Shown: positions 306 to 53,512, counted from the stretch's first letter. The stretch: 64,000 nt of DNA from Verrucomicrobiota bacterium (GCA_021772675.1 JAJFLO010000244.1:1468-65467), one strand, 5' to 3'. Translations and numbers: made by a program. The notes: generated from the sequence alone by a model not told the origin.

Positions 306-516
306 GCTGACAAGTGTTTGTTTAGCGTTGGTAGCTCGTGCCGCCGCCTCGCGGGGCCTGAGTAAAGCGTTTTAGCGCAGCCAGGAGCCGAGCGTAAAGC
401 GAGACAGCAATTTGCGATAGCGAATTAGTGAAACGGCAACGCCGCGTTACCATGCTTGTCCGGTTTACTCAGGCAGGAATGCCCGAGCTACTAACGCTAA
501 ACAAATACGCTGACAA
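306..516. mobile_element. MITE-like non-autonomous element (195 bp, 314-508) with 25-bp terminal inverted repeats and an 8-bp target-site duplication
   Basis: TIR-L 314-338 gtgtttgtttagcgttggtagctcg vs the reverse complement of TIR-R 484-508 (23/25 identical). Direct repeat GCTGACAA at 306-313 and 509-516. The interior is GC-rich in an AT-rich intergenic region and has no ORF. Confidence 0.7.
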
Positions 517-656: not shown

Positions 657-875
657 ATGCAGCAATTCAATTCCAACAAGATGTGGTCCCATGTCTTTCT
701 ACGTTTACAATTTCTTATCTATAGCTTTAGCCGAATCAAATCTCGTTTAAACGGCGTGCATCCCCAACAGAGCAGATGCGGCAGTCAGCTCAGGCTGTCG
801 TCATTAATACATTCGCTGACGATGACGGTAATGATGGTTTTGACATTGTCATTAGCCGTTGATACTTCGTTTGCT
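657..875 (+). other. N-terminal 55-aa basic extension followed by a signal-peptide-like segment (MTVMMVLTLSLAVDTSFA|AD)
   Basis: Translation: MQQFNSNKMWSHVFLRLQFLIYSFSRIKSRLNG...SLT then M56 (ATG 822), a hydrophobic core and an A-x-A-like SFA|A site (cleavage between nt 875/876). Which start is used (657 or 822) is unresolved. Confidence 0.5.
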
Positions 876-3800
876 GCCGACGGCGGTATTATATCCGGGG
901 CCGCTACTATTGACATCGCCTCAAACCGGCAAGACCCAAATGCTGGCGGCGCGGTCTATATCGCCTTGTTTACCGACAACGATTTTCAAATCAGTGCCGG
1001 ATTTGTCGATAAAACCAATTCCGTTGCAAATGGTAACTGGGTTGGAACCTTTCCCTACTCGTTCGGCACGATTGCAACACCGGTCACTAACGGCGACTAT
1101 TTCCTGGGTGCATTCATCGACCTGAATAGTGATGATAGGTGGACTATCGGTGAGCCACGCAGCGCCGCGACTACTCTGACAGTTGCCGATGCCGACGCAG
1201 TTGACACTGACCCAAATGATATTAAAACGTCACAGAATGTTATCATTGATGAGGATTTCGATAATGATACACTCCCAGATTGGTGGGAGGTTGAATACTT
1301 TGGCGATCTTGATGAAGATAGCGGTACAGATTCTGATAATGACGGTCTAACCAACCTTGAAGAATTTAATATCAGCATTGCTGCATCGAACTCAGTACCC
1401 GGGATTGATCCAAGTCATTGGGATACTGACGGCGACCAGATGGATGATAAATGGGAATATGATTTTTTCGCTAATGGCAGTGGACTGGATCCTGATGATG
1501 CTACAGGTGCAGAAGGATCAGATGGGGATATTGATAATGATGGTTTGACCAACCTGCAGGAATATCAGGGGGTTGACGGTAATCCGCTTAAAGAACTTGG
1601 CAGTTCAGCAAATAGTATTACCTTGGCATCTGATACCGGCAGTGCCGATGATTTAAGCCCGATTAATATTGATACGGATAATGATACGCTTGTTGATAGT
1701 TTTGAAGCAGCCTGGTACGATACTGGGAATGGAATTGATCCGAATAGTGCGGGTGACGCGGGTGCCGACCCGGACGCAGACGGTTTAAGCAATTATCGTG
1801 AGCAGGCGCTCTTAGCCGAATTCAGGAGCGGCGGTACGATCAATATCTGGACGAATGGCTCATCGTCTACCAATTATCCGACGACGGATGGCAACGGGGT
1901 GCGTGCTTTTGGAACAGCCTTATTCCCCCTTATACAGGATGATGACGCGGATCCAACCGGTACGGTTATCGCGAATTTAAACGAATTGCGTTTCAACGGT
2001 GATGGCAATGCCGGCGGTAACGAATGGACTGATCCAACCAATGGGACGTCCTATGACGAAGTGTTACACGAAGGTTATGATACAGATGATGACGATCTCC
2101 CGGACGGTTGGGAAGTTCAGTTTGGGCTGGATCCCAAAAGCTCAGCCGGAGATGATGGAAAATTTGGTAATCCGGATGGAGATAAATTGTTGAATTTCGA
2201 AGAGTATCTGGGGCAGGATGGCGAACGCTCCGGTACATTACCGTTTATTAACGGTACGGGAGATGAGACGAACCCAAATGTTTATTATTCCCGTCCCGAA
2301 TCAACGACTGCCGGAACCGGAATATCGAGAAATCAGACGCTCGGTTCCGCATTGCCGACAACCAATCTGGTTTCGCAATCCGGGTTGGACAATGATGATG
2401 ACGGTACTGATGATGAAGTCGAAATTCAAACAAATAGTTCAAGTCCGGTTCACTCGATGCATCCGTTCGTAAGACACTCCGCTAAAATTACCTCCGATAC
2501 AGGTATTTTTATACCCGATCCTGAACCCAGCAGTGGTTTAACTCCGGGTCTTAGAGAAGATTTGATATCTCGTGACTGGACACTGGAGTCCTGGGTTAAA
2601 ATCAACGCGGGAGTTACGCTGTCGGTTTACCTGATTGATTTTACTGCCGATACGTCATCTGCCGGGCTGACGAAAAACTTAGTCGCATATCGTTTAGAAT
2701 TGGTTGATAATGTTCCGCAGGCGTCCTTCGAAACCATTGGCAGTGCAAAATACACTGTTACAGGGAAGCCATTAACGACCGGGACATGGATTCACCTTGC
2801 TGCGGTATGGGACCATGCTAATAATCAATTTGCATTGTATGTCGATGGGTTTCTGGCCCAGGAAGAACGGGTATTTGAGGAATCTGTTTCAAATCTGGGA
2901 ATTGGTGGTGACAGTGCGACAAATCGTCCGATTTTGGCTTTAAGAAATGGCGGCGCGACTGCTCTGAATGCTAATTTATGGATTGATGAAGTTCGAATCT
3001 GGACGAGAGCAAGGACGCAAGTGGAAATCTACAATAATCGGAACGTCTTAATTGATCAAAGTACCTCAAACCTGGCGGCCTATTATCGATTTGATGATAA
3101 TGGTGTAACCGCAGAGGACTTCACAAGAAAAGCAAAGAATGGTTTGCTAAGCGCAACCGATGAAAACTTCTTTTTTGGCGATTTCGGTTATGCGTTGCCT
3201 ACCACAAGTTTCAGTTTTGTCACCGACGCCGCTCCGGTTCTTGGTTCCGATCCCAAGGGCGCTGATGACACTGATGGTGACGGAATGACGGATGGCTGGG
3301 AGTTGATTAATAATCTTGATTTAACCTCGGCAGTCGGAAATGGGGGTGCTTCCGGGGATCCTGATGGTGACGGACTGACAAATATTTATGAATTCCGGTC
3401 CGAAACCAATCCAAATGCCCAGGATACTGATGATAACGGCGTTCTCGATACCCTGGAAGATTTTGACGGGGATAATGTCAGCAATATAGCGGAGCAGAAT
3501 TTCGGCAGCCGGCCGGATCTTGCTGATACCGATGACGACGGAGATGCAGACGGGACCGAAGTCACAAACGGCACCAGCCTTACAGATGCTACTGAAAATT
3601 CTGATGATGACGGTGCAAGAAGTTTAAGACTGCCCGGCGCTGCAACCGATTATGCCGAGGTCCCAAACTCGTCCGTTCATTTCCTCACAAGCTGGACATT
3701 GGAGGCATGGATTTATGCAGACGCCGCGCTGGAGACGGGTACAATTGTTCGTAGAGTCGTTGAGCAAGATGCCGAATTCACAAATAATTTGACGACATTT

Positions 3801-6800
3801 GAACTGGGTATAACGGCCGGAAAACCCTATGCAAGATATGTGGAAGATAATGATAGGGATGCAACGGATGTTGAACATCGAGTCAATGCCGCTAATTCCG
3901 GTCCTGTCGGTGATGGAGTGGTTGCGCCGGCAACCTGGACCCATTTGGCAGGAACATTTGATTTTTCATCCGGTGTACTCACCTTGTATGTAGATGGTGT
4001 TCTTGATGATACGAATACCGGTAATACAGAGTCTCCGCCGGCAAATGGTGAAGGCAGTCAGGTATTTCTCCGAATTGGCGAATCATTTGACGGAGATATT
4101 GACGACGTTCGAATCTGGAGTACAATTCGTTCTGAAAGCCAGATCTCCGGTAATAAAGACGCTACAATTGACGGATCAACCACGGGACTGGTAAATTATC
4201 TTCGTTTTGACGATGGACAAGCCGCAGCAGACCCCCGGGGCGCTCAAGATTTCACGGTGTCCCGGGATTGGGATAATCAGTGGACATCTGCTGCAACTCT
4301 AAACGGAGCGGCGGCATTTGAAGTTACGAATGTTCCAATTTTGGTTTCAGCTTCCAGTACAACTGATTCGGATAATGATGATATGCCCGATAGCTGGGAA
4401 ATTGGTGAATTCGGCAATCTTACCACGGCGGAAAACGCCACAAATGCCGGTGGCGGCGCAACAATAGTCAGCGGTTATACGGACAGCGACGGCGACGGTC
4501 TGAACGACTTTTATGAATATTTGTCCGGAACGGATCCCAATGTATCAAACCCGGCACACTTAAGCAGCAACGCTGACACGGATGGATTAACAAATTTTCA
4601 GGAGCAGCAGCGGTCAACAGATGCCAGTAACAATGACACTGATAACGATGGTGTCACCGATGGCGATGAGGTATCTATGCATGGAACGAATCCTCTGAAT
4701 TCGTTAAGCAGCAATTCATTTTCATTGCAGGCCGTTGAATTTACTAACGATACAGATCAGGTAGCGATACCGGTTAATTCGAAATTCGATTTTTCTTCAT
4801 TTACTGTTTCCGCCTGGATTTTCCCAAAAACTGCGTTTGGCGAGGGTGTAATCATCAATAAGCTTGCGGATGGCGGGGGGGTGCATTATCGATTGGGTGT
4901 TACCGCAAAAAAAGCCTATATCAGAATCGGTGCCGTCACGGTTACGGATGCCAATAATTTGACCGCAGATAAATGGGCTCACATCGCGGCAACTTATGAT
5001 TCCAGTACCGGAACAATTACGTTGATAGTAAATGATGATAATGGAACTGGAACTCGCCTGGACAGTGTAACAACAGGGTCATTGGGCGCTTCCGTGATAG
5101 CTGATTCCAGTGAGGCAGTAACAATTGGTTTAAGCGGGTCCAGTGATACTGAAACACTGATTGATCAGGTGCGGCTGTATAATACAGCTTTAACTTCCTC
5201 TCAAATTACATCGGATAGACAGTCTTTTACGACCACCCAATCCTCTAATCTGGTGGGGCATTTCCGATTCGATGATCAGGGAACAACCGTAGAAGATTTT
5301 TCAGAACCCATCGGAAGCAACGCTGTGACTGCAATTACTAATTTAGCAAAGAGTGGAGTTCGAACCACCGGTGCAAAATTAGTTTCCAGCAGTACCCTCG
5401 ATGCGGTGATAAACAGCAGCGATGATACCGATGGTGACGGCCTGTCGGATGTATTTGAAGATGCGACAACTGGAGTCAGCTCAACCGATGCGGATTCAGA
5501 TGACGACGGCATATCGGATGCAAATGAAGATCTCGATAATGACGGCCTGACAAACTTACAGGAATTTCAGGGAGCCGACGGCATTGCAGGTACCGGTGAC
5601 GAGACTGATGCGAATAGCGCAGATACCGATAGCGATCAACTGAACGATAACGACGAGATCACAGCGGGCACTAATGCACTGGATGTTGATACGGATGACG
5701 ATGGAGAAGCCGATATTGAAGAGGTGGAAAAAGGTACCAATCCATTGAACAGCTTAGATCCGCTGGTGCGCCGTGTATTGGATTTTGCCGCTGCCGGGGA
5801 TGTAGCGACGATACCTGCACAAAGTAATTTGTCACTCCATAACATGACGATCAGTGTTTGGGTTAACCCGGATGGTGATGGAAATATTGTCGACAAGGGT
5901 ACCAATTACACCTTGAGTCGTACCGGAGGTGTGGGTGTATTTACCTTTACGATGGTGAAAGTAGATGGTGGAGTTGGCTCTGGTGAAGAGACAGTTACCG
6001 GAGTGACGCCTATACCGACAGCGACGTGGACTCATCTAACAGCCACAGTGGATACAATCAACGATGAGGCTGTATTATATGTTAACGGGGTGGAAGATAA
6101 GAAAATTACCCTACCGAGCCAGGAAGTCCCGGCTACAGTGCTGGGTACAGTCGTTCTTGGCGGCGGAAATTTGACCGGGCAGATTGATGAACTTCAGATC
6201 TGGAACCGACCATTGAGTTCGGCCGAAATATTAACCAATTATGTCTCAAGTCTTGCGGGGACCGAATCAAATTTAGTTGCATATTTCCCGTTTGATGACG
6301 GTCAATGGAACACCAGCGCTGCGCCATATGAGACGCCAAATGGCGCAGAAGATATGACGAATCGTTTGGACTTTACCGTTTCAGCGGTGCTTGGAGGCAC
6401 AACCACGTTTGTTGCTGCGTCCAGTCCGATTAACGTTGACACCGATAATGACGGGGTGTCCGATGGCAATGAACTATTGCTCGGAACAGATTTACTGGTA
6501 ACCGACAGTGATGGTGACGGTTTCCTGGACGGTCAGGAGGATGCAAATAATAATGGCGCCGTTGACGCCAATGAAACTAATCCGGCCAATGCAGATTCTG
6601 ATGGTGATGGCGTCAATGATAATATTGAAGGCCAGACAGCCGATACGGATCTTGACGGGACCATAGATGCCCGTGATACTGACAGTGACGGGGACAACTT
6701 GCTGGACGGTGCAGAAGACCTTGATGGTGATGGTGTTGTTGATAACGGGGAAACAAGCCGGGTTCTTAAGGATACCGATAATGACGGGCTTGATGATGAT

Positions 6801-9800
6801 AAAGAGGCGACGCATGGCACAAATCCGAGAATAACGGACAGTGACGGCGATAGTCTGCTTGATGGAGCTGAGGATGCCGATAATGATGGTGTTGTCGATA
6901 CAAGTGAAACTGATCCGGCCAATGCAGATTCCGATGGTGATGGTGTAAATGATGGCATTGAAGGCACAACGGCGGATACCGATCTTGATGGGACCATTGA
7001 TGCCCGTGATACGGATAGTGATGGTGACGGTCTCCCGGATGCTACGGAAGATGTTGATGGAGATGGTATTGTTGATGCTGGTGAATCAAGTCGACTTTTA
7101 AAAGATACCGATAGTGATGGGCTTGATGATAATAACGAGGTGACGCATGGCACTAATCCGCAATTGTCAGATAGTGATGGAGATGGCTTGGAAGACGGTG
7201 CTGAGGACCAGAACAATAACGGGGTTGTTAACGCAACAGAAACCAATCCGAATAATCCCGATACTGATGGCGACGGTGTCAATGATGGCGTTGAGGCTGG
7301 TAATATTAATTCTTTTGTAGATACTGATCTTGACGGAACAATCGATGCTCGTGACACCGACAGTGATGGTGACGGGTTATTGGATGGCGCTGAAGATCTT
7401 AATGGGGATGGCGATGTTGATGGTGGTGAAACAAATCGAGTTAATGTCGATACGGACTCAGATGGTCTAAATGATGATAAAGAATTGGCTCATGGTTCAA
7501 ATGCACAATTACAAGACAGCGATGGAGATTCGTTAAATGATGGAATAGAGGATGCCGATAATGATGGCGTCGTTGATGCGAATGAAACCGATCCCACTAA
7601 TGCAGATACGGATGGAGATGGATTTAATGATGCCGTAGAAGGCGTTGTTGATACCGATAACGATGGAACGGTTGATGCCCGTGATGCCGATAGTGATGCT
7701 GACGGTGTCACGGATGCCCAGGAATTTGCTGATGGCACCAACCCTAAACTTGCTGACAGTGATAGCGATGGCATTGATGACTTGTTTGAGCGTAATACGA
7801 CGGGTTTAGACGGAACCGTTAGTACCGACGCCGCCGGTGATATTGATAGTGATGGTCTTACAAATTTATTTGAGTATCAGGGTATTGACGGTATTCCGGG
7901 AAGCGGCGATGAATCCAGTTTGACAGATCCTGATACCGATGATGACGGATTATTGGATGGAGCAGAGTTTACTGCTCAAACTAATCCACTAGACGTTGAT
8001 ACGGATGACGATGGTGAAACGGATCAAGAAGAGGTGTTTCAAGGAACAAACCCGCTGGACAGTATTGATCCCAGGGTTCGCAGAGTATTAAACTTTTCTG
8101 ATACAAATGCAACAGATACCGCAACAATTCCTGCTCTGGCAAAATATCAGACCACAAGTTATACCATTGCATTGTGGGTTAGAGCCGCGGCAACGGGCAT
8201 TTTACTTAAAAAAGGGGCCGATTATACACTGGATCTGGTTGCATTGGTTCCTGAATTTACATTTACGATGGTCGATATTGACGGAAACAATCCGGTTGCC
8301 GAAACCGTAACAGGTCCGGATGCATTGACCGCAAATGCATGGACTCATCTAGCTGTGGTTGTCGATTCCGTAAACAATCAGGCGATTCTTTATATCAACG
8401 GTGTGTCGGTTGCCACCGAACCCATTGATAGTCAGAAAATTCCCGGTTCATCACTGACGACGATCGTGTTAGGTTCCGGCGGTGCATTTGTGGGTGATAT
8501 TGATGAACTTCAATTTTGGAGTAAATCATTAACGCAATCGGAGATTACAACAAATTCAAGAACGGATTTAACCGGAGCTGAAACCGGACTCATCGGTTAT
8601 TTTTCATTTAATGACAGTCAATGGAATAGAACAAATGAGCCAACATTTGAGTCTGCCAATGGTGCTGAAGATTTTACGGCGAGACGGGATTTTACCCAGT
8701 CAGCAGGTATTGACAGTGCGAATGTTACATTTGCCGAGTTGACGGAACCTTCGTTTTCGTTTAATTCATCCCATGAGACCGGAGCCACCGTCAGCGTTGA
8801 TCTGGGAGAGTCCAAGAGCATCACATTGTATCGATCGTTTACGGGATCGGGCAGTGCGACTACGGTAAATCTGGTATCAAGTGATCCGTCTAAATTTTCG
8901 GTAGGTTCCGAGGCAATATTCACCGTCAATTCAACGACAACAGATATTGTGATCACTGGAATTGCCGCCGCCGCCGATGCAACGTTCACAGGAATCCTTT
9001 CAGTATTAATAAATGGCGTACAACAAACATCTGTAAATGTTTCTGTTCAACCTACTGCCTTGACGATTACCGGACCAGCAGCAGTCGTTGCGGGTGATCT
9101 GGATACCTATACAGTGACACGACCTGCAAGCAGTGATGTCTCTCAATCCGTTTCTGTCAGTCTGTCAATAGATAACAATGGTGCATTTCAGGGGTTTGAT
9201 GGGCAGGGGAATTTTATTTTTGTTCAGGGAGCAGCTGTGGTTATTCCTGCCAATACTGTGAGCGCTACAATTGACGTTTATGGCGTATCGCCGGCATCCA
9301 ATGTGAGAATACGAGCGACGGCAACCAATCTCGTTGATGGTACTTTGGATATTAATGTTAGTAATCCAACATTGACATATGCCCCAAATACTAATCCTAC
9401 GGTTGTTCTGGTCGGGGAAACAAAGTCGATTTTGATTGAGCGCCAGTTCAATCAATCTCAGGGGCAGTTAGTGTTGAGTTTTATAAGCAGTGATACCAGT
9501 TTGTTTACTATTACTGGGGCGCTTACGTTTGGACGGAATCAGGTGCCGGGCATTATTAATGTAACCGGTGTGTCGTTGTCCGCGGGTGATAAAGATGGAT
9601 CAGGGCAGATTTTAGTGCGTGCCGGAACCGCGACCATAGACACATTAAGCATCAAAATCGATGCAAACACAAGTTTGACATTGACTGTCCCGAACGACAA
9701 CCAGGTGGTTGCGGGTGATACGGCGACGATGACCGTAACCCGTAACGGATCAACATCGGACAATTTGGTTGTTTCTTTAGTCAGCGATGATGAATCATTA

Positions 9801-12800
9801 CTGACCATTTCGAATTCTGTTACAATCCTGGCAGGAGAAACTGCCGCGAGTTTTGCTATGACCGGCGTGAGCCCCGGCAATAATGTTACGGTGAGGGCAA
9901 CGGCGCCGGGCTTTCCGGTCGACACGAATTCTAATCTGAATATTAATGTACTTAACCCGACAATTATCGCACCGGCCAGTGTTTCGACTCTTGTTAACAA
10001 TACCAAACGAGTCACGATTTCCAGACCGTTTGATGAAACGGGAGCCAACTTGAATGTTCAATTGCTGAGCACAAATACAACTGCATTTACCGTTCCCGGA
10101 ACCATCACGATTCCCGCTTTAAATACCAGTGTCAGTTTTAATGTTTCCGGAGTAAACTTAGGGTCGGGTCAACTGCTTATGGTTGTCGGACCGTATGCGG
10201 TGGGTACAAATGTGACTGTGACCGCACTGGACATCACCGGCGTTGAATTTCAGGACGGTAATGCAAATGGCCGGATTGATCGTGCCAGAGTGGTCTTTTC
10301 GTCACCGGTTTTAGACCACACAGTTAATGTTTCGCAGTTTGATGTTGTTTCAATCAATGAATTTGACTATGCAAACGAAACCTTAACTGTGCTTACCGAC
10401 ATTGCTAATGATGCGGTAATCTATATCACATTTGATGAACGAACCGTCGGTTATGACACGGGTATCATTCCTGATTTATTAATTACGACGCCAACGCTCA
10501 CCGACTTTTCAAGTCGACTGTTGAATAACGGGAGTTCATTGGGGCAGGATAATTTAATTGAGACAGATCAAGCGTCGCCGGTTCCGGTACAGGTTTTTAG
10601 AAGCGATCCGATTGCAGCGGGAGGAAATCTTCCGGACGGTACTGTGTTAACGGTTGTATTCAGTGAACCGATTGTCAATAATGCCTATGTCGAAGCCGCC
10701 GCAAATTTTGGTGTGGATCCGGACGGTCCGGGTGGTGGAGTCTCTTTATTTGCACAGGGACTAGATGGTTCGGCTGTATTAGCTGCCAGTTCGGCGTTTA
10801 ATGGGAATCGACTGATATTTACTCTTAGCGGTGCGACAACGAGCGGGAACTGGACGAATAATGCAACATTTAATTTGTTTAATTCACCATTTTTACAAAT
10901 CAGAGATGGAATTAACAATAATAGCAATAGAAATGTTGCTAATATTGTTGTCCGGGCTGATGAGCGTTTTATTGATGCGCCAAATGATACGGGTGAAGCA
11001 ATCATAGGACTAAATCTGAATCAACTGACGACAACATCGTCCTCCAGGCTTTCAAGTGTGATTGTAAATGTCGGCAATGTAGGAACCTTTCCGCCTTATG
11101 ATATTAGCGGTGATTTGAACTTTACATTATATAGAGATATCAATCATAACGGGACACTGGAAATTGGCACTGATGAAATAATTTCAAGTACAGGAACTCC
11201 AGGGGCATCAACATTTAGGCTTGAGCTCGACAATGGCCAATTATTACCCGCTGATGATAGTGATAATACGCAATTGTTTACTATTCAGGGAGTCGCTGTA
11301 GCAGATTTCACAACCCTGGATTCGGGTACATTAGTTCCGGATGTGATTGTTACAGCATTTGCAAATAATGCACGTACCCTATCATCGGATGCACACATAA
11401 ATGTTAATACTCAGGGAACTCAGTGGCAAATCGTTGATTCTAGTAATTTGTATTTATTAGTTAATGAAGCTGGAACAGTTCGTGTATTTTATAATAATGC
11501 AGGATTGGACTACCTTGTTGTCTTACGCACGACGGCCTCCGCAGGCTACTCAAAGGCCGGCCAATTTACGATTAATCCCGGTGACTTGATTATAAGCGAT
11601 GTAAACAATTTGCCTTTGGTGCCAATCCGTACCCCCGTGTATCGGTCAAGATTAAGTTCTGTAATTTCTGATGTTGTTGCCCGGAACTGGGCGATTTTTT
11701 CACTTGATCCTGACGAAACAATTGGTGAAACGATGGACACAATCACCTCAGATAATGCAAAAGTAGTTTCGTTTAATGCCAATTCAGGTCGTATTACAGA
11801 CTTTCCGGCAAGATTGGAAGCAAGGAACAGTAATTTTTCTAATGCGGTCGAAATCACATTTTCCGGAAGACTAACAGATGAAAGTACCCTTACTATCGCG
11901 GGTAGTGGCAATGTAACGGTAGAAATTGTTGATGAAACGACAGGAAATGTGATCGTATCATTAGGTACTCTAGCGTTGGATCAATCTGGTTCAAGTTTGT
12001 CAATTTCAGCAGCTGCCACACTCGATCCTGATACCAATCACGTACTACGATTAAAAAATGATAGCGATAATGTTGTTGATTTCGTAAGTGTATCGTTAAC
12101 AAATACAGGTGCTACCATAAGATTCAATACTCCGTCAGCACTCTTGCGTGTTGATGCCCAAAATAATTCCGCAACCTCAGTAAACCTTACGGAAATGCAT
12201 ATTAATTTCAGTAGTACGAATGGTGTATTTACACCAGAAGATTTATTAGATATTGATAATACAGCAACTAGCGGTGTTGCAATTTATAAGGATAACGGAG
12301 ATGGAATTTTTTCGTCTGTAACCGATACATTAATTCCATCTGCGGCTTCAACCGATGTCTTTTGGAATGGTTCCGGGCCTTATACGGTAAATTTACAAAA
12401 TTTAGCTGGTGCGATGATAAACGCGGCAACAACAGATATCTACTTTATTGTTGTTCGGGTAAGTCAGAATGCTGAAGATAATGAGCAATTTTCGGCAGCA
12501 ATAAAGGCCGGCGGTCTTGTTTACAGTGAGCCAGCTGTAAGCTCGGAAATTACAAGTGTTAACGTGACATCTTCGTCGCTAAAAGTGGATACCATTCCAC
12601 CGGCTCTAAAATTGGTTTCGTTTGTCGATGTCGATGGCAGTCAGAATGCCAATGCCGGTGATAATTTTCGATTTGAATTTAGTGAACCGATAGATTCTTC
12701 ATCGATTACTATAGCAACGATCAATGCTGCTCTTCCCATTACTTCAGGAAATTCATTTAATGCAACGTCATTGTTCTGGAGTGCTGATGGATTAACGCTA

Positions 12801-36800: not shown

Positions 36801-39800
36801 GTTCGAATCGGGGAGCAATTCAATGGAGATATCGATGAAGTCCGAATTTGGAAAGCGTCATTAAGTCAGCAAGTTATTGAAACGAATCTTGTCACGGCGC
36901 TGAATGGAACAGAAACTAATCTTATCGCCTATTATAATTTTAATGACAATAGTTCACTCAATCCAAAAAGTACCCAGGATAACGTCGGTGAATTCACAAG
37001 GGATTGGGAGAATAATTGGGGTAATTCAGGCATATTGATTGGCAATACAGCTTTCTTTGAAGTTATCGATAATCCACTGAACCCAGATGTTGATAGTGAC
37101 GGTGACAAATTACCTGACCGCTGGGAATTGGACAATTTTGGCGATCTTTCCATTGCCGATTCAACGACGGATGTCGATGGCGATAAATTACTGGATATAA
37201 ATGAATTTCTTATTGGATTAAATCCAAACGCCGTTGACTCAGACAGCAATGGAATATTAGATAGCGATGAAGATAGTGATGCAGACGGATTGATTAATGT
37301 TGAAGAGCAAAATGATTTCCAAACTCGTTTAGATTCTGCTGACAGTGATGATGATGGAATTAATGATAATATTGAAATTTCGTTTACCCTGCCAACAATT
37401 GATTCCGTTGAAGGTATCGCTAGTGGTTACAGTGGAGCCAGAACTCCGTTATCTCCATTTGTTCCCAGAAGTTTACGGTTGGAAGGCAGTGTCATATCCA
37501 TTCCAAAACCGGATCGGTTTGCGTTTGTTAGCACTGAAACAGTTGTTCAGGAGGGACCCACGGTAAATATTACCAGTCCTACGGACTCTTCAGATATAAA
37601 TGTGAGATTCGTAAATGTTTCCGGAACGATTGAATCGACATCAGATATCATTGGAATTCAATTTTTTGTAAATCAGCTTCTCGCAGATGAATTTCCGCTT
37701 AGTGAAGCCAGTTTTTCAAGGGATATAATTATCAGTTCAGGCATGAATGAAATCGCTGTCAAGGTTGAAAATGTTGAGGGACAATTTGGATTAGCTTTTG
37801 TTACAGTCAACGGAAGCTTTGCACCTGCAGATATTCGAGTTACCCAAACCTGGGGGCCCGCAGGGGATCTTGATACGTGGCTTGTCGATCCTCAAAACCG
37901 GCATATGGGCTGGACCGGATCCGGCCCGACATTTCCTCTGGAGCAGGCCGGTGAATCGGGGAATCCAGGACAAATTCCCGGTGCACAATTAGACATTGAT
38001 GATATACCCGGCACAGGACCAGAAAATATTACGCTAGAGCGCGACAACGCAGTGCCAGGCACCTATCAGGTTTGGATGAACAATTATTCAAATTCCAATA
38101 GCCCAGAATCGACGGTAAGAATATTGCTTCATGAAGGTACTCCAAATGAGAAACTAATTGAATTTGGTCCACAAAGTATGCCAACAAGTGATACTAACAG
38201 AAATGTTTCCGCCGCCTGGTGGAATACCACGAACATTGAGTGGCCAAGCGGCGTGTTAAGTCCTTCAGGGACAGAAATCTCACCAAGGAGTACTCGGGAA
38301 TCACTGGTAATTACAGAGCAATCTAATACTGGCTTTACAATTGAATTTTGGATTTATCCTGGTAGTGCCTCAGAAACTGGTTCAGTGATCGAATATCTTA
38401 ATTCCAGTGGCACTGCAGCCTATACTCTTGGTCTTAATGTGAACCGACCATTCATGCAGGTCTTGTCCGAATTACCAACGGGTTACGAGTCATTGACAGT
38501 TGATACCGCATTACCTGAAAATGTATGGTCTCATTTAACGTTCAGATATCGTTTTGACGTAAATGAAATGAGCATATCAGTCAATGGATCGTTTGCTGCA
38601 AAAACGGTTAAAACCATTATCTTAAATGAAGGCGGTACCGCAGTCATAGATAGTTCGTTTAACGGAATTTCATTTACCAATACAGGTATCGATGAATTAA
38701 GAGTCTGGAATACTATAAAAACAGAAAATAGTATAAATGCATTCAGACACAAATTTGTCGATGGTGCTAACGCCGCTTTAGTCGCAAATTTCCGATTTGA
38801 CGATGGTGGAAAAACGATCACCGATTACGCAAATACAGCGATCGAATTTGATTTACTTTCATTACTTGATCAACGAATTGATATATTGCCGGGAGGTGAC
38901 GATACCTGGGGCAATGCAGATGATGTGTTTGCATCTGATAGTGCAAAATGGATTGATGTTAACGCGAATAATATATTTGATATCGAAGACGAAGTGTTTA
39001 CCGACGCGAATAATGATAATATTTATAATGTCGGCGAAACGCAATTATTTGATGGTGGTGATGGTTGGACAAGTGTTCCGGATGTCTCCGTTGGACGTGT
39101 GGACAATCATAATGATCGGATTACCGCATTTCGGGCCGCATTAATAATCGGATCTGCGGAAGATTCCGACGGGGATGGCATAGAAGACTGGTACGAATCA
39201 TTCTTTTTCCGTGGCTTGACTGCAACTTCAGGACTAAATGACGGAGATAGTGATGGTCTGATAGATCGATATGAGTTCTTTGCTGGCACTAGCCCTCTAA
39301 ATAGTGACACGGATAGTAATGGAAAATCCGATGGCTTCGAAGATTCAATCGATGGAGATGGTCTTAGTAATCTTGATGAACAGGCACACTCCTCCGATCC
39401 GCGTTTGAGCGACACTGATGACGATGGAAAATCAGACAAAGCGGAAGTCTTAAGCGGAAATAATCCGACAGATTCTTTGGATCCTGTAGAAGCCAGGGCA
39501 CTGCATGTGTTAGGTAGCAGCTATGCAGAATCACCTATCGATACTCAACGCTATGGGTTCGACAGTTTTACAATTCAGGCGTGGGTTTACCCTTCAGATC
39601 TGGCTGCCGGTGGTGGTACTATTGACTCATCCATAATTTCCAGACAAGTCGGAACAGGAAAATATAACTACGATCTTGGTGTTAGATATAACACAGATTC
39701 CGATAAGGTTCAACCCTATGTAACCGTTTCTCCTAAAGATGGATCCACAAATGTTCAACTGATAGGAAATGTGATCTATTCAATTCCAATTAGTGATTGG

Positions 39801-42800
39801 TCTCATATTGCTGCAACATATAGTCGTGGTAGTCGATCGTTGGAGCTTTATGTTAATGGTCAAAAAATTTCTTCTACAGTTGTTACGAATGGCATAATGA
39901 CAACCGGTTTTGGACCAATCTGGGTGCGGTTTGGTGAAGGATTTACTGGATTTATTGATGAGGTTAGATTGGAGAAAACAGCTATAAGTCTATCACGAAT
40001 TCAGTTCGGCATGCATAGCCAGCCTGATATTAGTTCAGGACAATTGGCAGCCTATTTTAATTTTGATGATGGTGGAGATAATATTCATAATTTGGTATCA
40101 TCATTTAGCAGGGATTGGGAAGAGCAGTGGCTGCATTCTTTGATTGTGATTGGCAATGCTGTGGTTGAATCAGCCCCGATGGCTGTTCCAACAGTACAAT
40201 CTGGTATTGATAAAGATGGTGATGGTATCAGCGACAGCTGGGAACTACAACATTTCGGTTTAATTTCTCAAGTAAATGGCCGTGGTGATTTTGATAACGA
40301 TGGTGTCAATGATCTGTATGAATTTTTGAATGGTTCAGATCCACGATCGATTGGCTCAGATGCTGAAGATGACAAGGATAGTGATGGACTATCTACCATT
40401 GAAGAGCAGGCACATGGAACATTACCGCAAGAGCAAGATACTGATGATGATGGCCTGAATGATAAGGCTGAAATAGCGGCCGGGTCAAGTCCATTACATT
40501 CAATGAGTCCTCTAACAGAACGAGCATTGGATTTAGCACAAGTCGCTGCGACGGGAGTACAATTACCGTTTGCTGCAAATGAACTAAATAATCGGTTAGT
40601 CGATTGGACAATAGAATCTTGGATTCTAATAAAAGGAAATCAGACTGGGGCAATTTTAAGTAAATCTATCAATGGCCGTATCGGGTTTGAACTTGGATTA
40701 GTGGATAATGTGCCTTATGTCAGATTTCAAAAAGCAAGTGGAGATGTTAATATCGACTATTCTTCAAGCCAAAGTTCAGTGACTACGCCAGCCCTCCAGG
40801 TAAATAATGGGTGGGTACATTTAGCGGGTGTCTGGAATCGAGGCACTAATGTGCTTCGGCTTATTATTAATGGAAACACAATTATCGAGACACTGGTAGG
40901 CAGTTCCGTTTGGCCAATAGATGGATTTGGTTTAGTCACATTAGGTGCGGGGTTGGATAATGTTGTCATTGATGAGGTCCGAATTTGGAAAACCTTTCGT
41001 AGTCAAGTCGACATTGATAGTGATAGATGGAATTTGATTTCGTCAAAGAGTGCGGGTTTAGTTCGTTATTTCAGGTTCGATGACGGTGGTGATACTATTG
41101 AAGATTTTGCTCATCCCGGATTTAAAAATGAGTCAATATATGCATTTATAGCGCCGGGTGTTACCGTGTCTGATGCCCAAGCATATTTTGGATTAGATGA
41201 CCGTGACGATGATGGGATGCCGGACTGGTTTGAAAGTCTTTACAACGTTTCTGACGCTAATGAGGATTCGGATGGGGATCAACTTACAAATCTATACGAG
41301 TATTTTGGTAAGACTGATCCAATAATTAATCTTACGAGTGATTTGAAATCGGATCCGGATGGAGACGATCTTGATAATATTACTGAACAGAAATGGGGAA
41401 CTAATCCAAATATGTGGGATACGGATAATGACGGTTGGTCCGATGGGCATGAAGTGCTGGGTAAGGATGATATTGCTTTTGATGCAGATAATGATGGTAC
41501 TAGCGATCTAGCATCAAGTACCATATTACCACGTCGTCCAAGTAGTTTCACTTTTGCCAGTGATCCGCTAAGCCCATTACAGCCTGTTCAGCAAGCAAGT
41601 ATAAAGCTTACGGGATTGAATGTTGGTGCTGTGGTACCAGACAACAGTAAGTATGCTTTAAACAGCTGGACTATTGAAGCTTGGATTAGACCTACAGCGG
41701 ATAATTCTGGCGTGATCCTAAACCGTTCAGTTGGCTACAATAATGGATCATCCATTATTAATTACGAACTTGGTATCGCTAACGATAGCGGAGTGCTGCG
41801 ACCTTATGCAAAATACGTCACTCAATCCGGTGTTACCTATAGCGTTGGTGGTGCGGATGCTATCGTTCCTTTTGGCCATGTTTTGTCTGTATCCAATGGT
41901 GTCTGGACTCATTTGACTGCAACATTTGATCAAGCAAGTTATACATTGAGACTCTTTATTAATGGTATGCCGGTTGGCGAACGGATTGATTCGAGTGAAT
42001 TTCCAGTTTGTCCAGTGGCAGGAAATGGGCAGGCACTGGTCAGTACAGCTCCTGATACGTTTGTATTCGTTGGAGCAAGTGTTCAAATTGGCAGTGGATT
42101 TACAGGCAATATTGATGATATAAAAATTTGGGCTGGTGCTCGAGATGGCGACATAATATTCGATTCGTATCGTTCGGTTGATGCAAATGCCAGGGGCGGT
42201 GTCGAGCCTTTGAGTCATGATTCGTCCATCGTTGGCTCTGGTTTGGTTGATGTCAGTGTTTTGTTAAATGCGGATCACGAGACAGACGAATTATTGGTAT
42301 GCTATCGTCATGATTTGAATAAAATACAACGCGATGAACTCAATGAATCCATGAACGTCGTATTGATTAGAGAAAGTCCTTTGACGGGAATTCAGTTGGT
42401 TAAAATCGCGAAAGATAAATCGATGGCAGATAAGATTCTTGAGTTCAGGTCAAATAACGATGTGTTATATGTCGAACCAAATTACAAACTTAAAATTCCA
42501 AATGATATTATCGAATCGAATCAATCTGTACCGGATTCATTTTCCTTTCCTAATGATCCGAATTTCGATCAACAGTGGGGACTTCATAATATTGGACAAA
42601 CCGGTGGTTCCGCTGGTGCGGACATTAATGGTCCACAAGCCTGGGATATTACACGAGGTTCACGGGATGTTATCGTCGCTGTAATTGATACTGGTGTTGA
42701 CTATAATCATCCCGATATTGCTGGAAACATGTGGGTGAATGAAGGAGAAATACCCGGCAACAGCATTGATGATGATAACAATGGGTTTATAGATGACATT

Positions 42801-45800
42801 TATGGTTATGATTTTGCCAATAATGACAGTGATCCAGTAGACGATAATTTTCATGGTACACACGTTGCCGGTATAATTGGGGCCATTGGCAATAATAATG
42901 AAGGGATCGTCGGGGTTAACTGGAATGTTCGCATTATGGCACTTAAAATATTCAATAGTTCCGGTGTTGGTAACGCTGGTACGACAGATGATGCGATACA
43001 GGCCATCGAATATGCGATTCAAATGGGTGCAACATTTACCAACAACAGCTGGGGAGGTGGGGGCTTCTCGCAAGCCTTGAAGGACACGATTGAACGAGCA
43101 GGTGAAGCAGGTCAGCTTTTTGTTGCCGCAGCTGGGAACGATAACTCAGACAACGATGCCACGCCATCATATCCTGATTCATATGATTTGGATAATATTA
43201 TTTCAGTTGCTGCGAGTACCGATCGCGATAGTTTGGCGTCATTTAGTAATTTCGGCGCGGAAAATGTTGATTTGATGGCCCCAGGTCAAGGGATTATAAG
43301 TACTGTTCTAAATAATCAATATGAAACAGTTTCTGGAACGTCACAAGCAGCACCTCATGTTTCAGGTGTGGCCGCATTAATTCATGCAGCAAATCCTAGC
43401 TGGTCGTGGGATCAGGTTAAAAACGCGATTCTTAATAATGTTGACGAAATCCCAGATATTGAAGGGAAAATAGCAACATCTGGGCGCCTAAATGCCGTGT
43501 CAGCACTTAGTCGCGGAGGCGCGTTGAATCTGGTTGCATATTTTCGTAGTGATGCAGGTATCGGCGTCCAAGGCGCAATCGCGTCCAGCCTAGTAAGCGC
43601 TGCAAGTATAATTCATGATTTAACAGAAATGGACGATTGGTCCCTGAACCTTAATGGACGAACTGGGAAATTTGCGGCCAAATTAGTTAATGCGTCTATT
43701 GACGACGTCGAGTTTGCCTTGATGCCTGGAGATATTGACGGTGACGGTATGCCAGACTGGTTTGAAACTGCTTATGATCTCAATGTATTCGGTGAGGACG
43801 CAAATGACGATGAAGACGTAGATGCTTTAACCAACTATTACGAATTTTTAGCTGGTACAAGCCCAATCGATTTTGCAACCAATGGTCAAACCGCTGACAT
43901 AATTGCAGATTCAGATATTGACCAGATTTCGAATCAAGATGAACAAATTACTGGCTCACATCCCGGCGATATCAATGCGGACACGGACAACGATGGGTTG
44001 ACCGATATTATTGAACAATCGGGGGACAATCCGACATCTGTAACGGATTCATTATCACCCTTTAAGGATCGTGCATTAAAGGTTAACTCAAGTACCAATG
44101 ACTTTTTAGTATTACCAAATCAACCTCGATTTTCTATGGGTAACAGTTGGACGGTTGAAGCAATGGTAAATCTAGACAAATTCTGTAAAGATAATCAAGA
44201 TAATATCGTAAATGGTGGAGTCGTTGATGATAAGGCCGTTATCATCAGCAGAGCAATTGATGATAATGCCGATGGTGCGTTTAATGCAATAAATTATGAG
44301 TTAGGAATTAGCGCGATTGGAAAACCCTATGTGTTGTTTACTAGTGCAACTATTCCAGGTACAAATTTTAATATTGAGTTTAAAGCGGAAGCCTCAACTC
44401 AATTAGAATGTGGTTTATGGACGTTTATCGCAGGTAGTTATAATGCACAAGAACAAACATTGGGGATTTACGTCAATAAAGTGTTGTGGGTGGAAATTTC
44501 GACTGCATTTGAACCGGCTGGGTCCGAACCGGGTAAAACTGAAGTTGTTGCTGGTAATAACTTAACGGGTCAAATTGATAATTTAAGGATTTGGAACAGT
44601 CACTTTGGCAGCATTGTTGCCGCTGAGATTGAAAGTAACGGATTCGATCTATCAAATGATTTGGTTGCATTTTACAGTTTTAATGACGGTGGAACTCACA
44701 TTCAGGATTTTGCCTCAGGATTTGAAGATGATTGGAAAACAGGCTGGTTTAATGCAGCACAGTTTGCTGGAAGCGCGGCACTAAATGACCAACTTGGTGA
44801 TGATGGAGTTGATCTGAATGCTGACAGTGATGACGATGGTATTCCGGATTGGTGGGAACTGCTTCATTTTGGACATTTGAGTATCGTGGAAAAAGATAGT
44901 AAGTCTGATTCAGATGGGGATGATTTGACTGATATCTTTGAGTATTTATCAGCGACAAATCCCAATTTAGTGGATTCCGACGGAGATGGAATTGAAGACT
45001 TTGACGAAGACGTAGATAATGATAACGTCTTAAATCTTGACGAACAGGATTTTGGAACTAATCCCGGATTGAAGGATACTGATGACGATGGTAAAAGGGA
45101 TGATGTAGAGTTATTTACGAATTTTACTGATGCCAGGGATAGTCTAAATCCAAGAGTTGAACGTGTCTTAAACATTAATAACGGCTATTTATCGGTAAGC
45201 AATAACGATAACTTAAGTTTGTCAGAATTTTCAGTCGCCGTTTACGTAAATCCAAGTGTTAACGCATTAGTTGATCAAGTCATTCTTGAGAAAGTTGGAG
45301 ATGATGAAAAGCTGAATTACCAACTGGTACTTCAGGCAAATAACAAGGTCAAATTTCTATATCATCGCGATCAGTCCGGTACACCACGCGAGGTTACTTC
45401 GACAGCAACATTGAGTTTTAATTTATGGTCGTTGATAATTGCCGAACTTGATAGTACCAACGAGAAAATCAAGTTAACGATATATGCCCGCGACAATATC
45501 AATAATTTAATCGAAAAATCGTTTAATGAAAATGATGCCTTTGGTGACCCGGTTACTGGTGTGGGTCCGTTGTATATTGGATCATCAAAACCTGTTTCTG
45601 GAACAACACCAGTAGGGCAATTTCAAGGGATGATTGACGAACTATCAATTTGGCCTAATCCATTGACCAGTACGGAAGTTAATGATATTCAAAATCTTTC
45701 TATAAGCGTAAATGACGAAGTTTCACGTGCCAAGTTAGCTGCGTATTACAAGTTTAATGACGGGGGTGAAACTGTCGAAGATTTCGCTCATGATAATGAC

Positions 45801-51669: not shown

Positions 51670-52107
51670 TTTGATGTAATAAATCTAAATTTAATTTTAA
51701 TTCTCTCTAACCTGAATAATCCAGGCTAGTAAGCTCGTGGTTATTGTCTTGTCATTATGACATTTGGCCATCGTTTCACGCTTTTGTGCGCCTAAGGTTG
51801 GACGTTCCGTCTTTTGACGTGCGTTTCTAAATAGGCAGTCTAACCCGGATTTTTCACACTACTTTGTTACAAAAGCGTATATCACCTAAATTCAATGTCT
51901 TAACTTACCTCGCGAACTCAATATGTTTCGACTTACTGTCATCTGCTCGTCTAGGTCAAACCATTGAATATAGGCAATCTAAACTTTCTCACCACAAAGT
52001 TTGTGAGAAAACCGGGCAAAAAACGGAACTTCATACTAACCACCTCAGAATACAAATTCGTCTTATGTTAATCGAGGTCACGCAACGGGCTGGAACGTTA
52101 TACTCCC

Positions 52108-53472: not shown

Positions 53473-53512
53473 ATCATGATTCGATAAAATTTTTTAGATG
53501 TGAATTTATCGC

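What the first reader, a model, noticed from the sequence alone, without database searches (positions are those of the whole stretch)
2450..45700. Rigid repeat grammar iterated about 30 times: TSP3 Ca-loops, then a LamG jelly roll, then a YYRFDDGG..EDF junction strand
Almost every module has the same order. It opens with a run of DxDxDG[LI]xNxxE loops ending in a short 'NP.[DN]S.[DS]P' linker. Next come the LamG strands (F[ST][IV]EAW[IV].P ... W[TS]H[IVL]A ... L[YF][VI][ND]G ... G.[IL]DE[VI]R[IV]W.R.L[ST]..EI). About 20 residues later comes a strand of the type [LV][VIA]AY[YF][RS]FDDGG...[VI]EDF. In ordinary LamG_3 proteins that last strand is the first strand of a jelly roll. If that holds here, the Ca-binding loop arrays sit inside or between split jelly rolls rather than acting as simple linkers. 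That would give a rod or bead chain whose stiffness could depend on Ca2+. This degree of regularity over 43 kb is unusual.
Basis: partly seen in the sequence, partly recalled or inferred. Interest (0 to 1): 0.65.

Follow-up and report, generated by a model that had tools for sequence, protein, structure and literature searches.

The report
Giant calcium-linked chain of LamG domains
The region is most of one 16,534-residue bacterial protein in which 30 complete lectin-like (LamG) domains are strung on calcium-binding linkers; the puzzling "junction strand" simply belongs to the domain before it, so the repeat is real but built from known parts in a rearranged strand order.

Summary
The window holds one ORF (nt 657-50261, 16,534 aa). 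Pfam and a self-built HMM confirm 30 Laminin_G_3 cores, 163 DxDxDG calcium-loop motifs (11 expected) and, after every core, a "tail" made of the YYRFDDGG strand plus two more strands. The grammar is less rigid than described. Nineteen modules are simple. Eight form four core-core-tail-tail pairs. Three carry a foreign insert between core and tail, including an intact subtilase with its prodomain. A 1,700-aa stretch of Ig-like domains interrupts the array.

The first core has no tail before it and the last tail has no core after it. Cores and tails match 30:30, and no calcium loop ever lies between a core and its tail. AlphaFold folds tails that follow a core and leaves the one that only precedes a core disordered. 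Core similarity tracks the following tail, not the preceding one. PDB entry 4DQA has the same core-then-strand order, and 150 related giant proteins behave the same way at their ends.

So each LamG is a self-contained circular permutant, the TSP3 arrays are plain linkers, and the core-tail hairpin is an insertion hot spot. Function is inferred: probably a calcium-stiffened surface fibre. Relatives are mostly Lentisphaerota.

The parts
657..50261 (+). Single giant ORF, 16,534 aa. AGGAG lies 8 nt upstream of the ATG. A hydrophobic signal-like segment spans aa 56-73. Composition: Asp 11.5%, Cys 0.1%.
2556..45875 (+). The LamG array, from the first core (aa 634) to the last tail (aa 15073): 30 cores and 30 tails. 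nt = 657 + 3*(aa-1). Core/tail starts in aa: 634/800, 987/1172, 1356/1526, 1700/1867, 2470/2639, 4412/4589, 4698/5137, 4903/5069, 5291/5501, 5785/5978, 6132/6311, 6479/6658, 6835/7281, 7025/7208, 7454/7663, 8123/8307, 8522/8687, 8858/9525, 9684/10228, 10009/10145, 10574/10993, 10751/10937, 11347/11727, 11892/12083, 12557/12704, 12941/13125, 13283/13463, 13641/14278, 14466/14663, 14830/15022.
18756..19049 (+). Example TSP3 linker between modules 10 and 11: 4 DxDxDG loops in about 100 aa. AlphaFold predicts short helices between the loops, pLDDT 62-84.
19050..19586 (+). Example LamG_3 core (module 11, aa 6132-6310). It starts at the 'R.L.F.G...VELP' strand and ends at 'IDELKIW...EI'.
19587..19760 (+). 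Example tail of module 11 (aa 6311-6368): 'DLVAYYRFDDD...RDWENNWQNAALLLGGADFVE'. It forms three strands in the model, at construct residues 343-348, 379-382 and 386-389.
6432..8063 (+). Long TSP3 run (aa 1926-2469) with 36 DxDxDG motifs. It contains a 333-345-nt super-repeat.
8754..13646 (+). Interruption of the array: Ig-like beta-sandwich repeats (Big_5, and a weak DUF4183 hit), with no LamG.
14748..16196 (+). Nested LamG pair 1 (core A, core B, tail B, tail A; aa 4698-5180).
21159..22670 (+). Nested LamG pair 2 (aa 6835-7338).
29706..31481 (+). Nested LamG pair 3 (aa 9684-10275). The inner core carries extra inserts.
32376..33791 (+). Nested LamG pair 4 (aa 10574-11045).
27228..29381 (+). 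LamG 18. The core is split by a 239-aa insert, and a further 241 aa lie between core and tail. Both inserts are made of 'YFDxNxNG..GEDxW' repeats.
34695..36002 (+). LamG 23. A 201-aa unassigned beta domain lies between the core and the tail.
41577..42176 (+). Core of LamG 28 (aa 13641-13840). Its tail comes only after the protease.
42267..42482 (+). Fervidolysin-type subtilase prodomain (PF22148, aa 13871-13942).
42663..43481 (+). Peptidase_S8 catalytic domain. D14011, H14066, N14161 and S14229 are all present.
43488..43697 (+). Tail of LamG 28 (aa 14278-14347): 'LNLVAYFRSDAG...DDWSLN...AAKLVNASIDDVEF', followed directly by TSP3.
45876..50258 (+). C-terminal 1,460 aa with no LamG: a TSP3 run, Ig-like repeats, a weak PPC domain (nt 48537-48812), and an unassigned terminal duplication 'GWNL..P...GYW.YS'.

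Best explanation
Shown. The finding is the central 43 kb of one gene for a 16,534-aa, very acidic, cysteine-free protein. It carries 30 concanavalin-like LamG_3 jelly rolls separated by runs of bacterial TSP3 Ca2+-binding loops.

Strongly supported. Each LamG is a circular permutant of the conventional LamG_3. In the conventional domain three strands open the fold: 'LVAYWxFD.G', then 'N..L.GG', then 'A.F/W'. Here they are encoded after the core, about 20 residues past the 'IDEVRIW...EI' strand, and fold back onto that same core. The domain boundary therefore falls after this tail. The TSP3 arrays are linkers between complete domains, not insertions into split domains.

Supported by sequence. 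The hairpin between the last core strand and the tail is an insertion hot spot. It holds a second complete LamG in four modules (a LamG-in-LamG 'double module'), repeat inserts in module 18, an unassigned beta domain in module 23, and a prodomain plus catalytically intact S8 subtilase in module 28.

Inferred, confidence about 0.4. The protein is exported and forms a long pendant-bead fibre. Its roughly 160 Ca2+ loops stiffen the linkers, the LamG domains bind ligands (probably glycans), and the embedded subtilase acts on the fibre itself or on what it binds.
For: 1. Array ends and counts. The tail HMM finds nothing upstream of the first core; its first hit is at aa 804. The last tail (aa 15022-15073) is followed by 1,460 aa with no LamG. 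Cores and tails number 30 and 30.
2. Distance to the next core. Tail 5 is separated from the next core by 1,711 aa of Ig-like domains.
3. Position of the calcium loops. No DxDxDG motif ever lies between a core and its tail. Three to 36 lie between a tail and the next core.
4. Pairs. The core-core-tail-tail pairs cannot be paired up if tails belong to the following core.
5. AlphaFold2 on the construct tail-TSP3-core-tail-TSP3-core-tail (aa 5975-6725). The upstream tail has pLDDT 26-43 and no structure. Both tails that follow a core form three strands in blocks of pLDDT 72-81. This includes the last tail, which has no core after it in the construct.
6. Mantel test on 18 modules. Core similarity correlates with similarity of the following tail (r 0.28, p 0.001; r 0.24, p 0.013 without the closest pair). 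It does not correlate with the preceding tail (r 0.06-0.08, p about 0.3).
7. Solved structures. A native-order profile aligns continuously through core, linker and Y strand of 4DQA, a two-domain DUF1735+LamG3 protein whose chain ends there (profile 35-210 = residues 159-335 of 355). The score is 54.5 bits, against 44.7 bits for a de-permuted profile (PMC11216935). 4QVS has 48 residues before its core and only 7 after, the opposite order.
8. Relatives. In the 150 best representatives from 1.84 billion proteins, the first core has an upstream Y strand in 1 of 78 cases. The last core has a downstream Y strand in 73 of 120. Of 667 Y motifs, 501 lie within 55 aa after a core.
9. Conservation of the inserts. 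The four pairs and one from a Verrucomicrobia MAG (L026) align end to end. Forty-one of the 150 representatives carry a full pair, median 500 aa. L026 has the same core - pro-S8 - tail order at 42% identity.
Against: - No model coordinates were available, so the tail-to-core contacts are inferred from pLDDT and DSSP only.
- The disordered upstream tail also had the shallowest alignment, about 3.7 rows against 10-18 elsewhere.
- The AlphaFold model of a nested pair was uninformative: 4-row alignment, mean pLDDT 51.6, both tails below 30.
- hhalign of the de-permuted profile against a conventional LamG_3 (P0012) aligned only the core. Homology of the tail to the conventional opening strands therefore rests on motif resemblance.
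- The last core lacks a recognisable downstream Y motif in 47 of 120 relatives. This may reflect limits of the regular expression.
- Export route, Ca2+ binding, ligand and protease activity are all untested. No secretion genes lie nearby.
Confidence: 0.8

Rival explanations
1. One reading: split jelly rolls. The tail is the opening three strands of the NEXT LamG, and each TSP3 array is a large insertion in the loop between strand 3 and strand 4. Ca2+ loops would then sit inside the domains and neighbouring modules would be interlocked.
For: In conventional LamG_3 (P0012) the same motif directly precedes the core. In an uninterrupted tandem array the two readings are the same linear sequence. 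P0004 starts with a Y strand followed by short TSP3-like loops and then a core.
Against: The first core would lack three strands and the last tail would be an orphan. Tail 5 would have to reach across 1,711 aa of Ig domains. Core-core-tail-tail pairs leave one core without a tail and one core with two. AlphaFold leaves the upstream tail disordered. The Mantel test links a tail to the preceding core. First cores in 77 of 78 relatives have no upstream Y strand.
Confidence: 0.06
2. The tail is an independent small element, for example a cap for the TSP3 run or a three-stranded mini-domain. It would belong to no LamG, and the cores would be complete without it.
For: The Pfam Laminin_G_3 model covers only the core: profile positions 2-151 map to the core and end at '...EI'. 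Tails are always followed by TSP3 or another linker. AlphaFold confidence in the tails (60-80) is somewhat lower than in the cores (80-89).
Against: The core starts at the strand that is fourth in conventional domains and has no equivalents of strands 1-3. An isolated three-strand piece would not be expected to reach pLDDT near 80. In pairs and in insert-bearing modules the tail follows the insert rather than staying next to a TSP3-free junction, so tail number tracks core number, not TSP3-run number: 30 tails for 30 cores. 4DQA carries the Y strand with no TSP3 at all.
Confidence: 0.1
3. Artefact: an assembly collapse or expansion of repeats, or a non-coding region that happens to be open.
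For: Very long repetitive genes are prone to mis-assembly.
Against: The frame is open for 49.6 kb. Modules are only about 25% identical at protein level and DNA repeats 60-85% identical, so there is nothing for an assembler to collapse. HMM E-values reach 1e-63 per module. Homologous giant proteins exist in many metagenomes.
Confidence: 0.01

Closest known systems
Giant 'tandem-repeat scaffold' proteins rich in PF13385 (up to 36 copies) and PF18884 TSP3 repeats (up to 41 copies), described for Omnitrophota (bioRxiv 10.64898/2026.06.07.730766); NCBI names such proteins 'LamG-like jellyroll fold domain-containing protein'
   Same: Size class, the two dominant Pfam families, and copy numbers (30 LamG_3 here).
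   Different: The named relatives of this protein are Lentisphaerota and Verrucomicrobia MAGs, not Omnitrophota. The strand-order permutation, the nested LamG pairs and the protease insertion were not found in the passages of that preprint that a term search returned; the paper was not read in full.
DUF1735+LamG3 SusE/F-like surface glycan-binding proteins of Bacteroidota (PDB 4DQA BACOVA_03559; BT3986)
   Same: A LamG_3 whose Y strand follows the core, shown by continuous alignment through residues 159-335 of 355. LamG3 in BT3986 is reported as a sugar-binding module (PMC11216935).
   Different: These are small two-domain lipoproteins encoded in PULs, with no TSP3, no iteration and no inserts.
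Thrombospondin signature domain (type 3 Ca2+-binding 'wire' followed by a ConA-like L-lectin domain; see PMC6526912, and own knowledge of the TSP-1/TSP-2 structures)
   Same: DxDxDG-type Ca2+ loops directly followed by a concanavalin-like jelly roll.
   Different: It occurs as one copy per chain, is disulphide-rich, and its wire wraps around the lectin domain. Here Cys is 0.1%, there is no Pfam TSP_C hit, the unit is iterated about 25 times, and AlphaFold gives no fixed linker-to-domain packing (pTM 0.45).
Giant Ca2+-dependent RTX adhesins (LapA, MpIBP type; own knowledge)
   Same: Very long extracellular chains of beta-sandwich domains that Ca2+ is thought to rigidify.
   Different: Those are built of BIg repeats with RTX nonapeptides and a C-terminal T1SS signal, and their genes usually sit beside T1SS genes. 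None of these features was found here.
Circular permutation within the concanavalin-like fold (concanavalin A versus other legume lectins; permuted 1,3-1,4-beta-glucanases; own knowledge, and PMC3416981 for the glucanase context)
   Same: The same superfold tolerates relocation of its termini.
   Different: In ConA the permutation is post-translational. Here it is encoded in the gene, lies at a different cut point, and is coupled to domain insertions.

Membership tests
Laminin_G_3 (PF13385) | Match to the Pfam HMM above the gathering score (27.6 bits) | tested here: met
   59-192 bits per 1000-aa slice, in 14 of 17 slices. Thirty cores found by the self-HMM.
Laminin_G_3 (PF13385) | Concanavalin-like jelly-roll fold | tested here: met
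   AlphaFold cores have pLDDT 80-89. Foldseek hits to laminin LG4-5, PAPP-A LamG, 4DQA and pentraxins, E 1e-10 to 1e-7.
Conventional LamG_3 topology (as in P0012 and 4QVS) | The 'LVxxWxFD' strand and the next two strands lie N-terminal to the core | tested here: not met
   Here they follow the core in all 30 modules. The order matches 4DQA instead.
Bacterial TSP3 repeat (PF18884) | Match to the Pfam HMM above 25 bits | tested here: met
   36.2, 35.6, 26.8, 41.7, 26.0 and 34.2 bits in different slices. 163 DxDxDG motifs against 11 expected.
Bacterial TSP3 repeat (PF18884) | Ca2+ binding by the loops | not testable with these tools
   Inferred from the motif only.
Peptidase_S8 (subtilases) | HMM match plus the Asp/His/Ser triad and the oxyanion Asn | tested here: met
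   212 bits, E 1e-62. D14011, H14066, N14161 and S14229 present. About 50% identity to ordinary secreted pro-S8 proteases.
Peptidase_S8 (subtilases) | Proteolytic activity and prodomain autoprocessing | not testable with these tools
Thrombospondins | TSP C-terminal L-lectin domain (Pfam TSP_C) with Cys-rich type 3 repeats and EGF domains | tested here: not met
   No TSP_C or EGF hit anywhere in the protein at E <= 0.01. Cys is 0.1%.
RTX / T1SS giant adhesins | RTX nonapeptide repeats (PF00353) | tested here: not met
   No HemolysinCabind hit.
RTX / T1SS giant adhesins | Neighbouring T1SS genes | tested here: not met
   Neighbours are an M20 peptidase, RapA, a radical SAM protein, PLD, RibD and RibE. 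Only 0.6 kb upstream is visible.
T9SS cargo | C-terminal Por_secre_tail / T9SS CTD | tested here: not met
   No Pfam or NCBIfam hit in the last 434 aa.
Giant LamG_3/TSP3 tandem-repeat scaffold proteins | A polypeptide of several thousand residues dominated by PF13385 and PF18884 copies | tested here: met
   16,534 aa, 30 LamG_3, about 160 TSP3 loops. 2,203 library proteins match the double-module profile at E <= 1e-30.

The most novel reading that the evidence does not exclude
The prodomain-S8 cassette sits between the core and the tail of LamG 28. If the subtilase removes its own prodomain as free subtilases do, the 16.5-kaa chain would be cut in two inside a folded LamG domain. The N-terminal roughly 14,000-aa fragment and the C-terminal roughly 2,500-aa fragment would then stay joined only by strand complementation: core from one fragment, three-strand tail from the other, plus the prodomain-enzyme complex. 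That would be a self-made, non-covalent clasp comparable to GAIN or SEA autoproteolytic modules, and force or loss of Ca2+ could release it. The same core - pro-S8 - tail arrangement in a Verrucomicrobia MAG at 42% identity suggests that the arrangement is selected.
Probability: 0.1. Interest if true: 0.7.

Novelty: new variant of a known kind. Interest (0 to 1): 0.4.

Why it matters
Giant LamG/TSP3 proteins are common in metagenomes of PVC-group and other uncultured bacteria, and they are annotated only as strings of Pfam hits. Three points follow from this analysis.

- The true domain unit is core plus a following three-strand tail, which sets correct domain boundaries for structural and expression work on the whole family.
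- The 'junction strand' grammar is explained without invoking exotic split domains.
- The core-tail hairpin emerges as a recurrent insertion site. It has produced LamG-in-LamG double modules (found in 41 of the 150 closest representative proteins) and a protease embedded in a lectin-like domain.

These are useful examples of circular permutation and recursive domain nesting. They do not bear on a long-standing open question, and the protein's biological role remains inferred.

Tried and rejected
- AlphaFold2 of nested pair 2 with only its four paralogues as alignment: mean pLDDT 51.6, both tails below 30, so uninformative.
- An alignment for the core - pro-S8 - tail segment (A3): MAFFT smeared the LamG paralogues across the S8 region, so it was not submitted. 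Adding single modules to the pair alignment produced chimeric alignments.
- hhalign of the de-permuted profile against conventional P0012, and phmmer/hmmsearch of de-permuted modules against PDB: only the core aligned, so these gave no sequence-level proof that the tail equals the conventional N-terminal strands.
- Orthologue search with the S8 segment in GTDB genomes: only the S8 domain matched widely, and only L026 shared the LamG context.
- Taxonomy. RapA is not on record by exact look-up. The nearest RapA relatives (82% and 77%) are unnamed. The 77% relative keeps PLD-RibD-RibE-RapA synteny but has no giant gene beside rapA.
- Rfam and tRNA scans of the window found nothing.
- Pfam and NCBIfam at relaxed thresholds assigned nothing to the N-terminal 230 aa, the 201-aa insert of module 23, or the last 434 aa.
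- Literature searches found no description of a permuted LamG_3 or of LamG/TSP3 grammar.
- Recent tandem amplification was considered and rejected. Adjacent modules are no more alike than distant ones (0.26 against 0.255), and DNA repeats are at most 85% identical.

Full report
WHAT IS THERE

The window contains one open reading frame on the + strand, nt 657-50261, encoding 16,534 aa. An AGGAG lies 8 nt before the ATG, and a hydrophobic signal-like segment spans aa 56-73. The protein has 11.5% Asp and 0.1% Cys. The finding's range, nt 2450-45700, is the central part of this gene. Downstream genes are housekeeping: an M20 peptidase, RapA, a radical-SAM protein, PLD, RibD and RibE. No secretion system is visible.

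CHECK OF THE OBSERVATION

Pfam finds Laminin_G_3 in 14 of 17 consecutive 1000-aa slices, with E-values down to 6e-57. It finds TSP3_bac at up to 41.7 bits against a cut-off of 25. An HMM iterated on the protein itself finds 30 LamG cores between aa 634 and 15048, with per-domain E-values of 1e-34 to 1e-63 for complete copies. A second HMM, together with reading of the sequence, finds 30 'tails'. Their consensus is SNLVAYFRFDDGGKTIEDFAALFSRDWEANWTNSAIVSGNAAF.

There are 163 [DN]x[DN]x[DN]G motifs against 11.2 +/- 3.5 in shuffles. Of these, 88 fit DxDxDG[LIV]x[ND]xxE. Typical linkers are 100-130 aa with 3-6 loops. One run, aa 1926-2469, has 36. So the elements and their order are real and far beyond chance.

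The grammar is less rigid than described:
- Nineteen modules are simple.
- Eight cores form four core-core-tail-tail pairs.
- Three modules have 200-440 aa inserted between core and tail.
- aa 2700-4330 are Ig-like domains with no LamG.
- A subtilase lies inside the stated range.

WHAT THE TAIL IS

The Pfam LamG_3 model covers only the core. The core starts at the 'R.L.F.G...V.LP' strand, immediately after the last TSP3 loop ('DTDDDG..D..E...G.NP..S L.P'). In a conventional LamG_3 such as P0012, the motif 'ELVGHWKFDG...NHGTF.G.A...' comes straight after the signal peptide and before that same strand, and nothing like it follows the core. The question is which jelly roll it joins here.

WHICH JELLY ROLL IT JOINS

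Nine independent lines of evidence point to the preceding one.
1. The first core has no tail before it; the first tail hit is at aa 804. The last tail is followed by 1,460 aa with no LamG. Cores and tails number 30 and 30.
2. Tail 5 is followed by 1,711 aa of Ig-like domains before the next core.
3. No Ca loop ever lies between a core and its tail.
4. Core-core-tail-tail pairs cannot be resolved if tails belong to the following core.
5. AlphaFold2 on aa 5975-6725, a construct running tail-TSP3-core-tail-TSP3-core-tail, gave mean pLDDT 72. The upstream tail is unstructured (pLDDT 26-43). Each tail that follows a core forms three strands in blocks of pLDDT 72-81. This holds even for the final tail, which has only the preceding core available.
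6. Across 18 modules, core-core similarity correlates with similarity of the following tails (Mantel r 0.28, p 0.001; r 0.24, p 0.013 without the closest pair). It does not correlate with the preceding tails (r 0.06-0.08, p about 0.3). The one young pair, modules 4 and 5 at 45% identity, shares a unique insertion in its following tails.
7. A native-order profile aligns in one piece through core, linker and Y strand of PDB 4DQA (residues 159-335 of 355; 54.5 bits). A de-permuted profile aligns only the core (44.7 bits). 4DQA is a DUF1735+LamG3 two-domain protein whose chain ends there (PMC11216935). 4QVS has 48 residues before its core and 7 after it, the opposite order. Both strand orders therefore occur among solved structures.
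8. Among the 150 best of 1.84 billion representative proteins, the first core has an upstream Y strand in 1 of 78 cases. The last core has a downstream Y strand in 73 of 120. Of 667 Y motifs, 501 lie within 55 aa after a core end, against a background expectation of about 5% per window.
9. The best hit among the few homologues found by word search (P0001, Lentisphaeria) shows the same order, TSP3-core-tail-TSP3.

The conclusion is that each LamG is a complete, circularly permuted domain and that the TSP3 arrays are inter-domain linkers. In an uninterrupted tandem LamG_3 array the two readings are indistinguishable. Here the position of the linkers and the ends of the array reveal the boundary.

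AN INSERTION HOT SPOT

In simple modules the tail follows 'IDEVRIW...EI' by about 20 residues. In several modules this hairpin holds something else.
- In four modules it holds a whole second LamG with its own tail at the normal spacing, followed by the outer tail (aa 4698-5180, 6835-7338, 9684-10275, 10574-11045). From the spacing, this reads as core A, [core B, tail B], tail A, i.e. nested.
- The four pairs align end to end with each other and with a pair in L026, a 65%-GC Verrucomicrobia MAG.
- Forty-one of the 150 representatives carry at least one full pair, median 500 aa. The double module is therefore old and widespread.
- Module 18 has two inserts of a second Ca-loop-like repeat. Module 23 has an unassigned 201-aa beta domain.
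- Module 28 has a Fervidolysin-type prodomain plus a Peptidase_S8 domain with an intact triad. Its tail, 'LNLVAYFRSDAG...', comes directly after the protease.
- The closest S8 relatives (about 50% identity) are ordinary secreted pro-S8 enzymes without LamG. L026 has the same core - pro-S8 - tail order at 42% identity.

HISTORY OF THE ARRAY

Cores average 25.5% identity, with a maximum of 45%. Adjacent cores are no more alike than distant ones (0.26 against 0.255). DNA repeats are only 60-85% identical. The youngest is a 333-345-nt super-repeat inside the long TSP3 run. The array is therefore ancient, not a recent tandem amplification. The double modules spread as blocks.

SOURCE ORGANISM

The organism was not identified. 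RapA has unnamed relatives at 82% and 77% identity, the latter on a 1.95-Mb contig. Named relatives reach only about 44% (Verrucomicrobiota and others). The 77% relative keeps the PLD-RibD-RibE-RapA synteny but has no giant gene next to rapA. Named members of the giant-protein family are Lentisphaerota MAGs, plus the Verrucomicrobia MAG L026. A PVC-group origin is likely but is an inference.

HOW IT PROBABLY WORKS (INFERENCE)

Because the permuted domain starts at strand 4 and ends at strand 3, the chain enters and leaves each LamG at neighbouring points. The LamGs would therefore hang as pendant beads on a TSP3 wire. About 160 Ca2+ loops, by analogy with thrombospondin type 3 repeats and RTX adhesins (own knowledge), would make the wire Ca2+-dependent in stiffness. 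AlphaFold gives no fixed packing between linker and domain (pTM 0.45). LamG3 domains of the 4DQA/BT3986 type bind glycans (PMC11216935), so a multivalent surface adhesin or capture fibre with one embedded protease is the most likely role, at a confidence of about 0.4. The export route and the anchor are unknown. No RTX, T9SS or other sorting signal was found.

COMPARISON WITH WHAT IS KNOWN, AND NOVELTY

Giant proteins dominated by PF13385 and PF18884 are already described as a class (bioRxiv 10.64898/2026.06.07.730766). Relatives of this one are numerous: 2,203 library proteins match at E <= 1e-30. The core-then-tail strand order already exists in a solved structure (4DQA), although I found no paper remarking on it. 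What is new relative to that knowledge is a set of architectural points: the reading of the grammar as permuted domains, the LamG-in-LamG double module, and the protease nested in a LamG. I rate this a new variant of a known kind, with moderate interest.

Noticed in passing
window 42267-43697: A complete subtilase cassette (Fervidolysin-type prodomain plus Peptidase_S8 with an intact D/H/N/S set) is inserted between the core and the tail of LamG 28. The same arrangement occurs in a Verrucomicrobia MAG (L026, aa 1970-2664 of its 4,521-aa ORF).
   Followed up: partly
window 27561-28166, 28734-29216, 31566-31676, 34122-34586, 38949-39056 (aa 8969-9170, 9360-9520, 10304-10340, 11156-11310, 12765-12800): A second, unassigned Ca-loop-like repeat, '[FY][FY]xDxNxNGx[FY]xxGE[DE]xW[KQ]D', occurs in about 15 copies. 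It is found only in inserts and long linkers and matches no Pfam family.
   Followed up: no
window 6499-7735: A super-repeat of 333-345 nt (3-4 copies, 72-80% identical) lies inside the 36-loop TSP3 run. It is the youngest duplication in the gene.
   Followed up: no
window 314-508 (also 1-21 / 156-176): Upstream of the giant ORF, a 25-bp near-perfect inverted repeat encloses a GC-rich interior of about 145 nt. The RNA fold is -96.8 kcal/mol with z -5.9, and there is no Rfam match. A second inverted repeat lies at the very start of the window. These could be a structured RNA, a terminator or a small mobile element.
   Followed up: partly
window 49600-50258 (aa about 16330-16534): The extreme C-terminus carries two copies of a 'GWNL[IV]..P ... 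G[KV]GYW[VI]YS' unit with no Pfam or NCBIfam match. It is a candidate anchoring or sorting domain.
   Followed up: partly
window 8754-13646: About 1,600 aa of Ig-like beta-sandwich repeats (Big_5, and a weak DUF4183 hit) interrupt the LamG array between modules 5 and 6.
   Followed up: partly
L081 10001-22847, compared with window 50536-60927: A relative with 77% identical RapA, on a 1.95-Mb contig, keeps RibE-RibD-PLD-RapA synteny. Where this window has the giant gene, it carries ThsB-TIR, 8xMP, RDD and Band_7 genes, so the giant gene sits in a variable region.
   Followed up: no
window 52108-53472 (-) and 61422-62402 (+): A 454-aa ORF has only a weak RimK/ATP-grasp resemblance, and a 326-aa ORF has no family match.
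   Followed up: no
window 23643-24191 (aa 7663-7845): Module 15 has a Y strand (aa 7667-7677), then an insert of about 110 aa, then a second tail-like piece ('AFIRFLSDPNGAEDFTDRLNWNFAARRNAVNITW'). This is either a tail split by an insertion or a duplicated tail.
   Followed up: no
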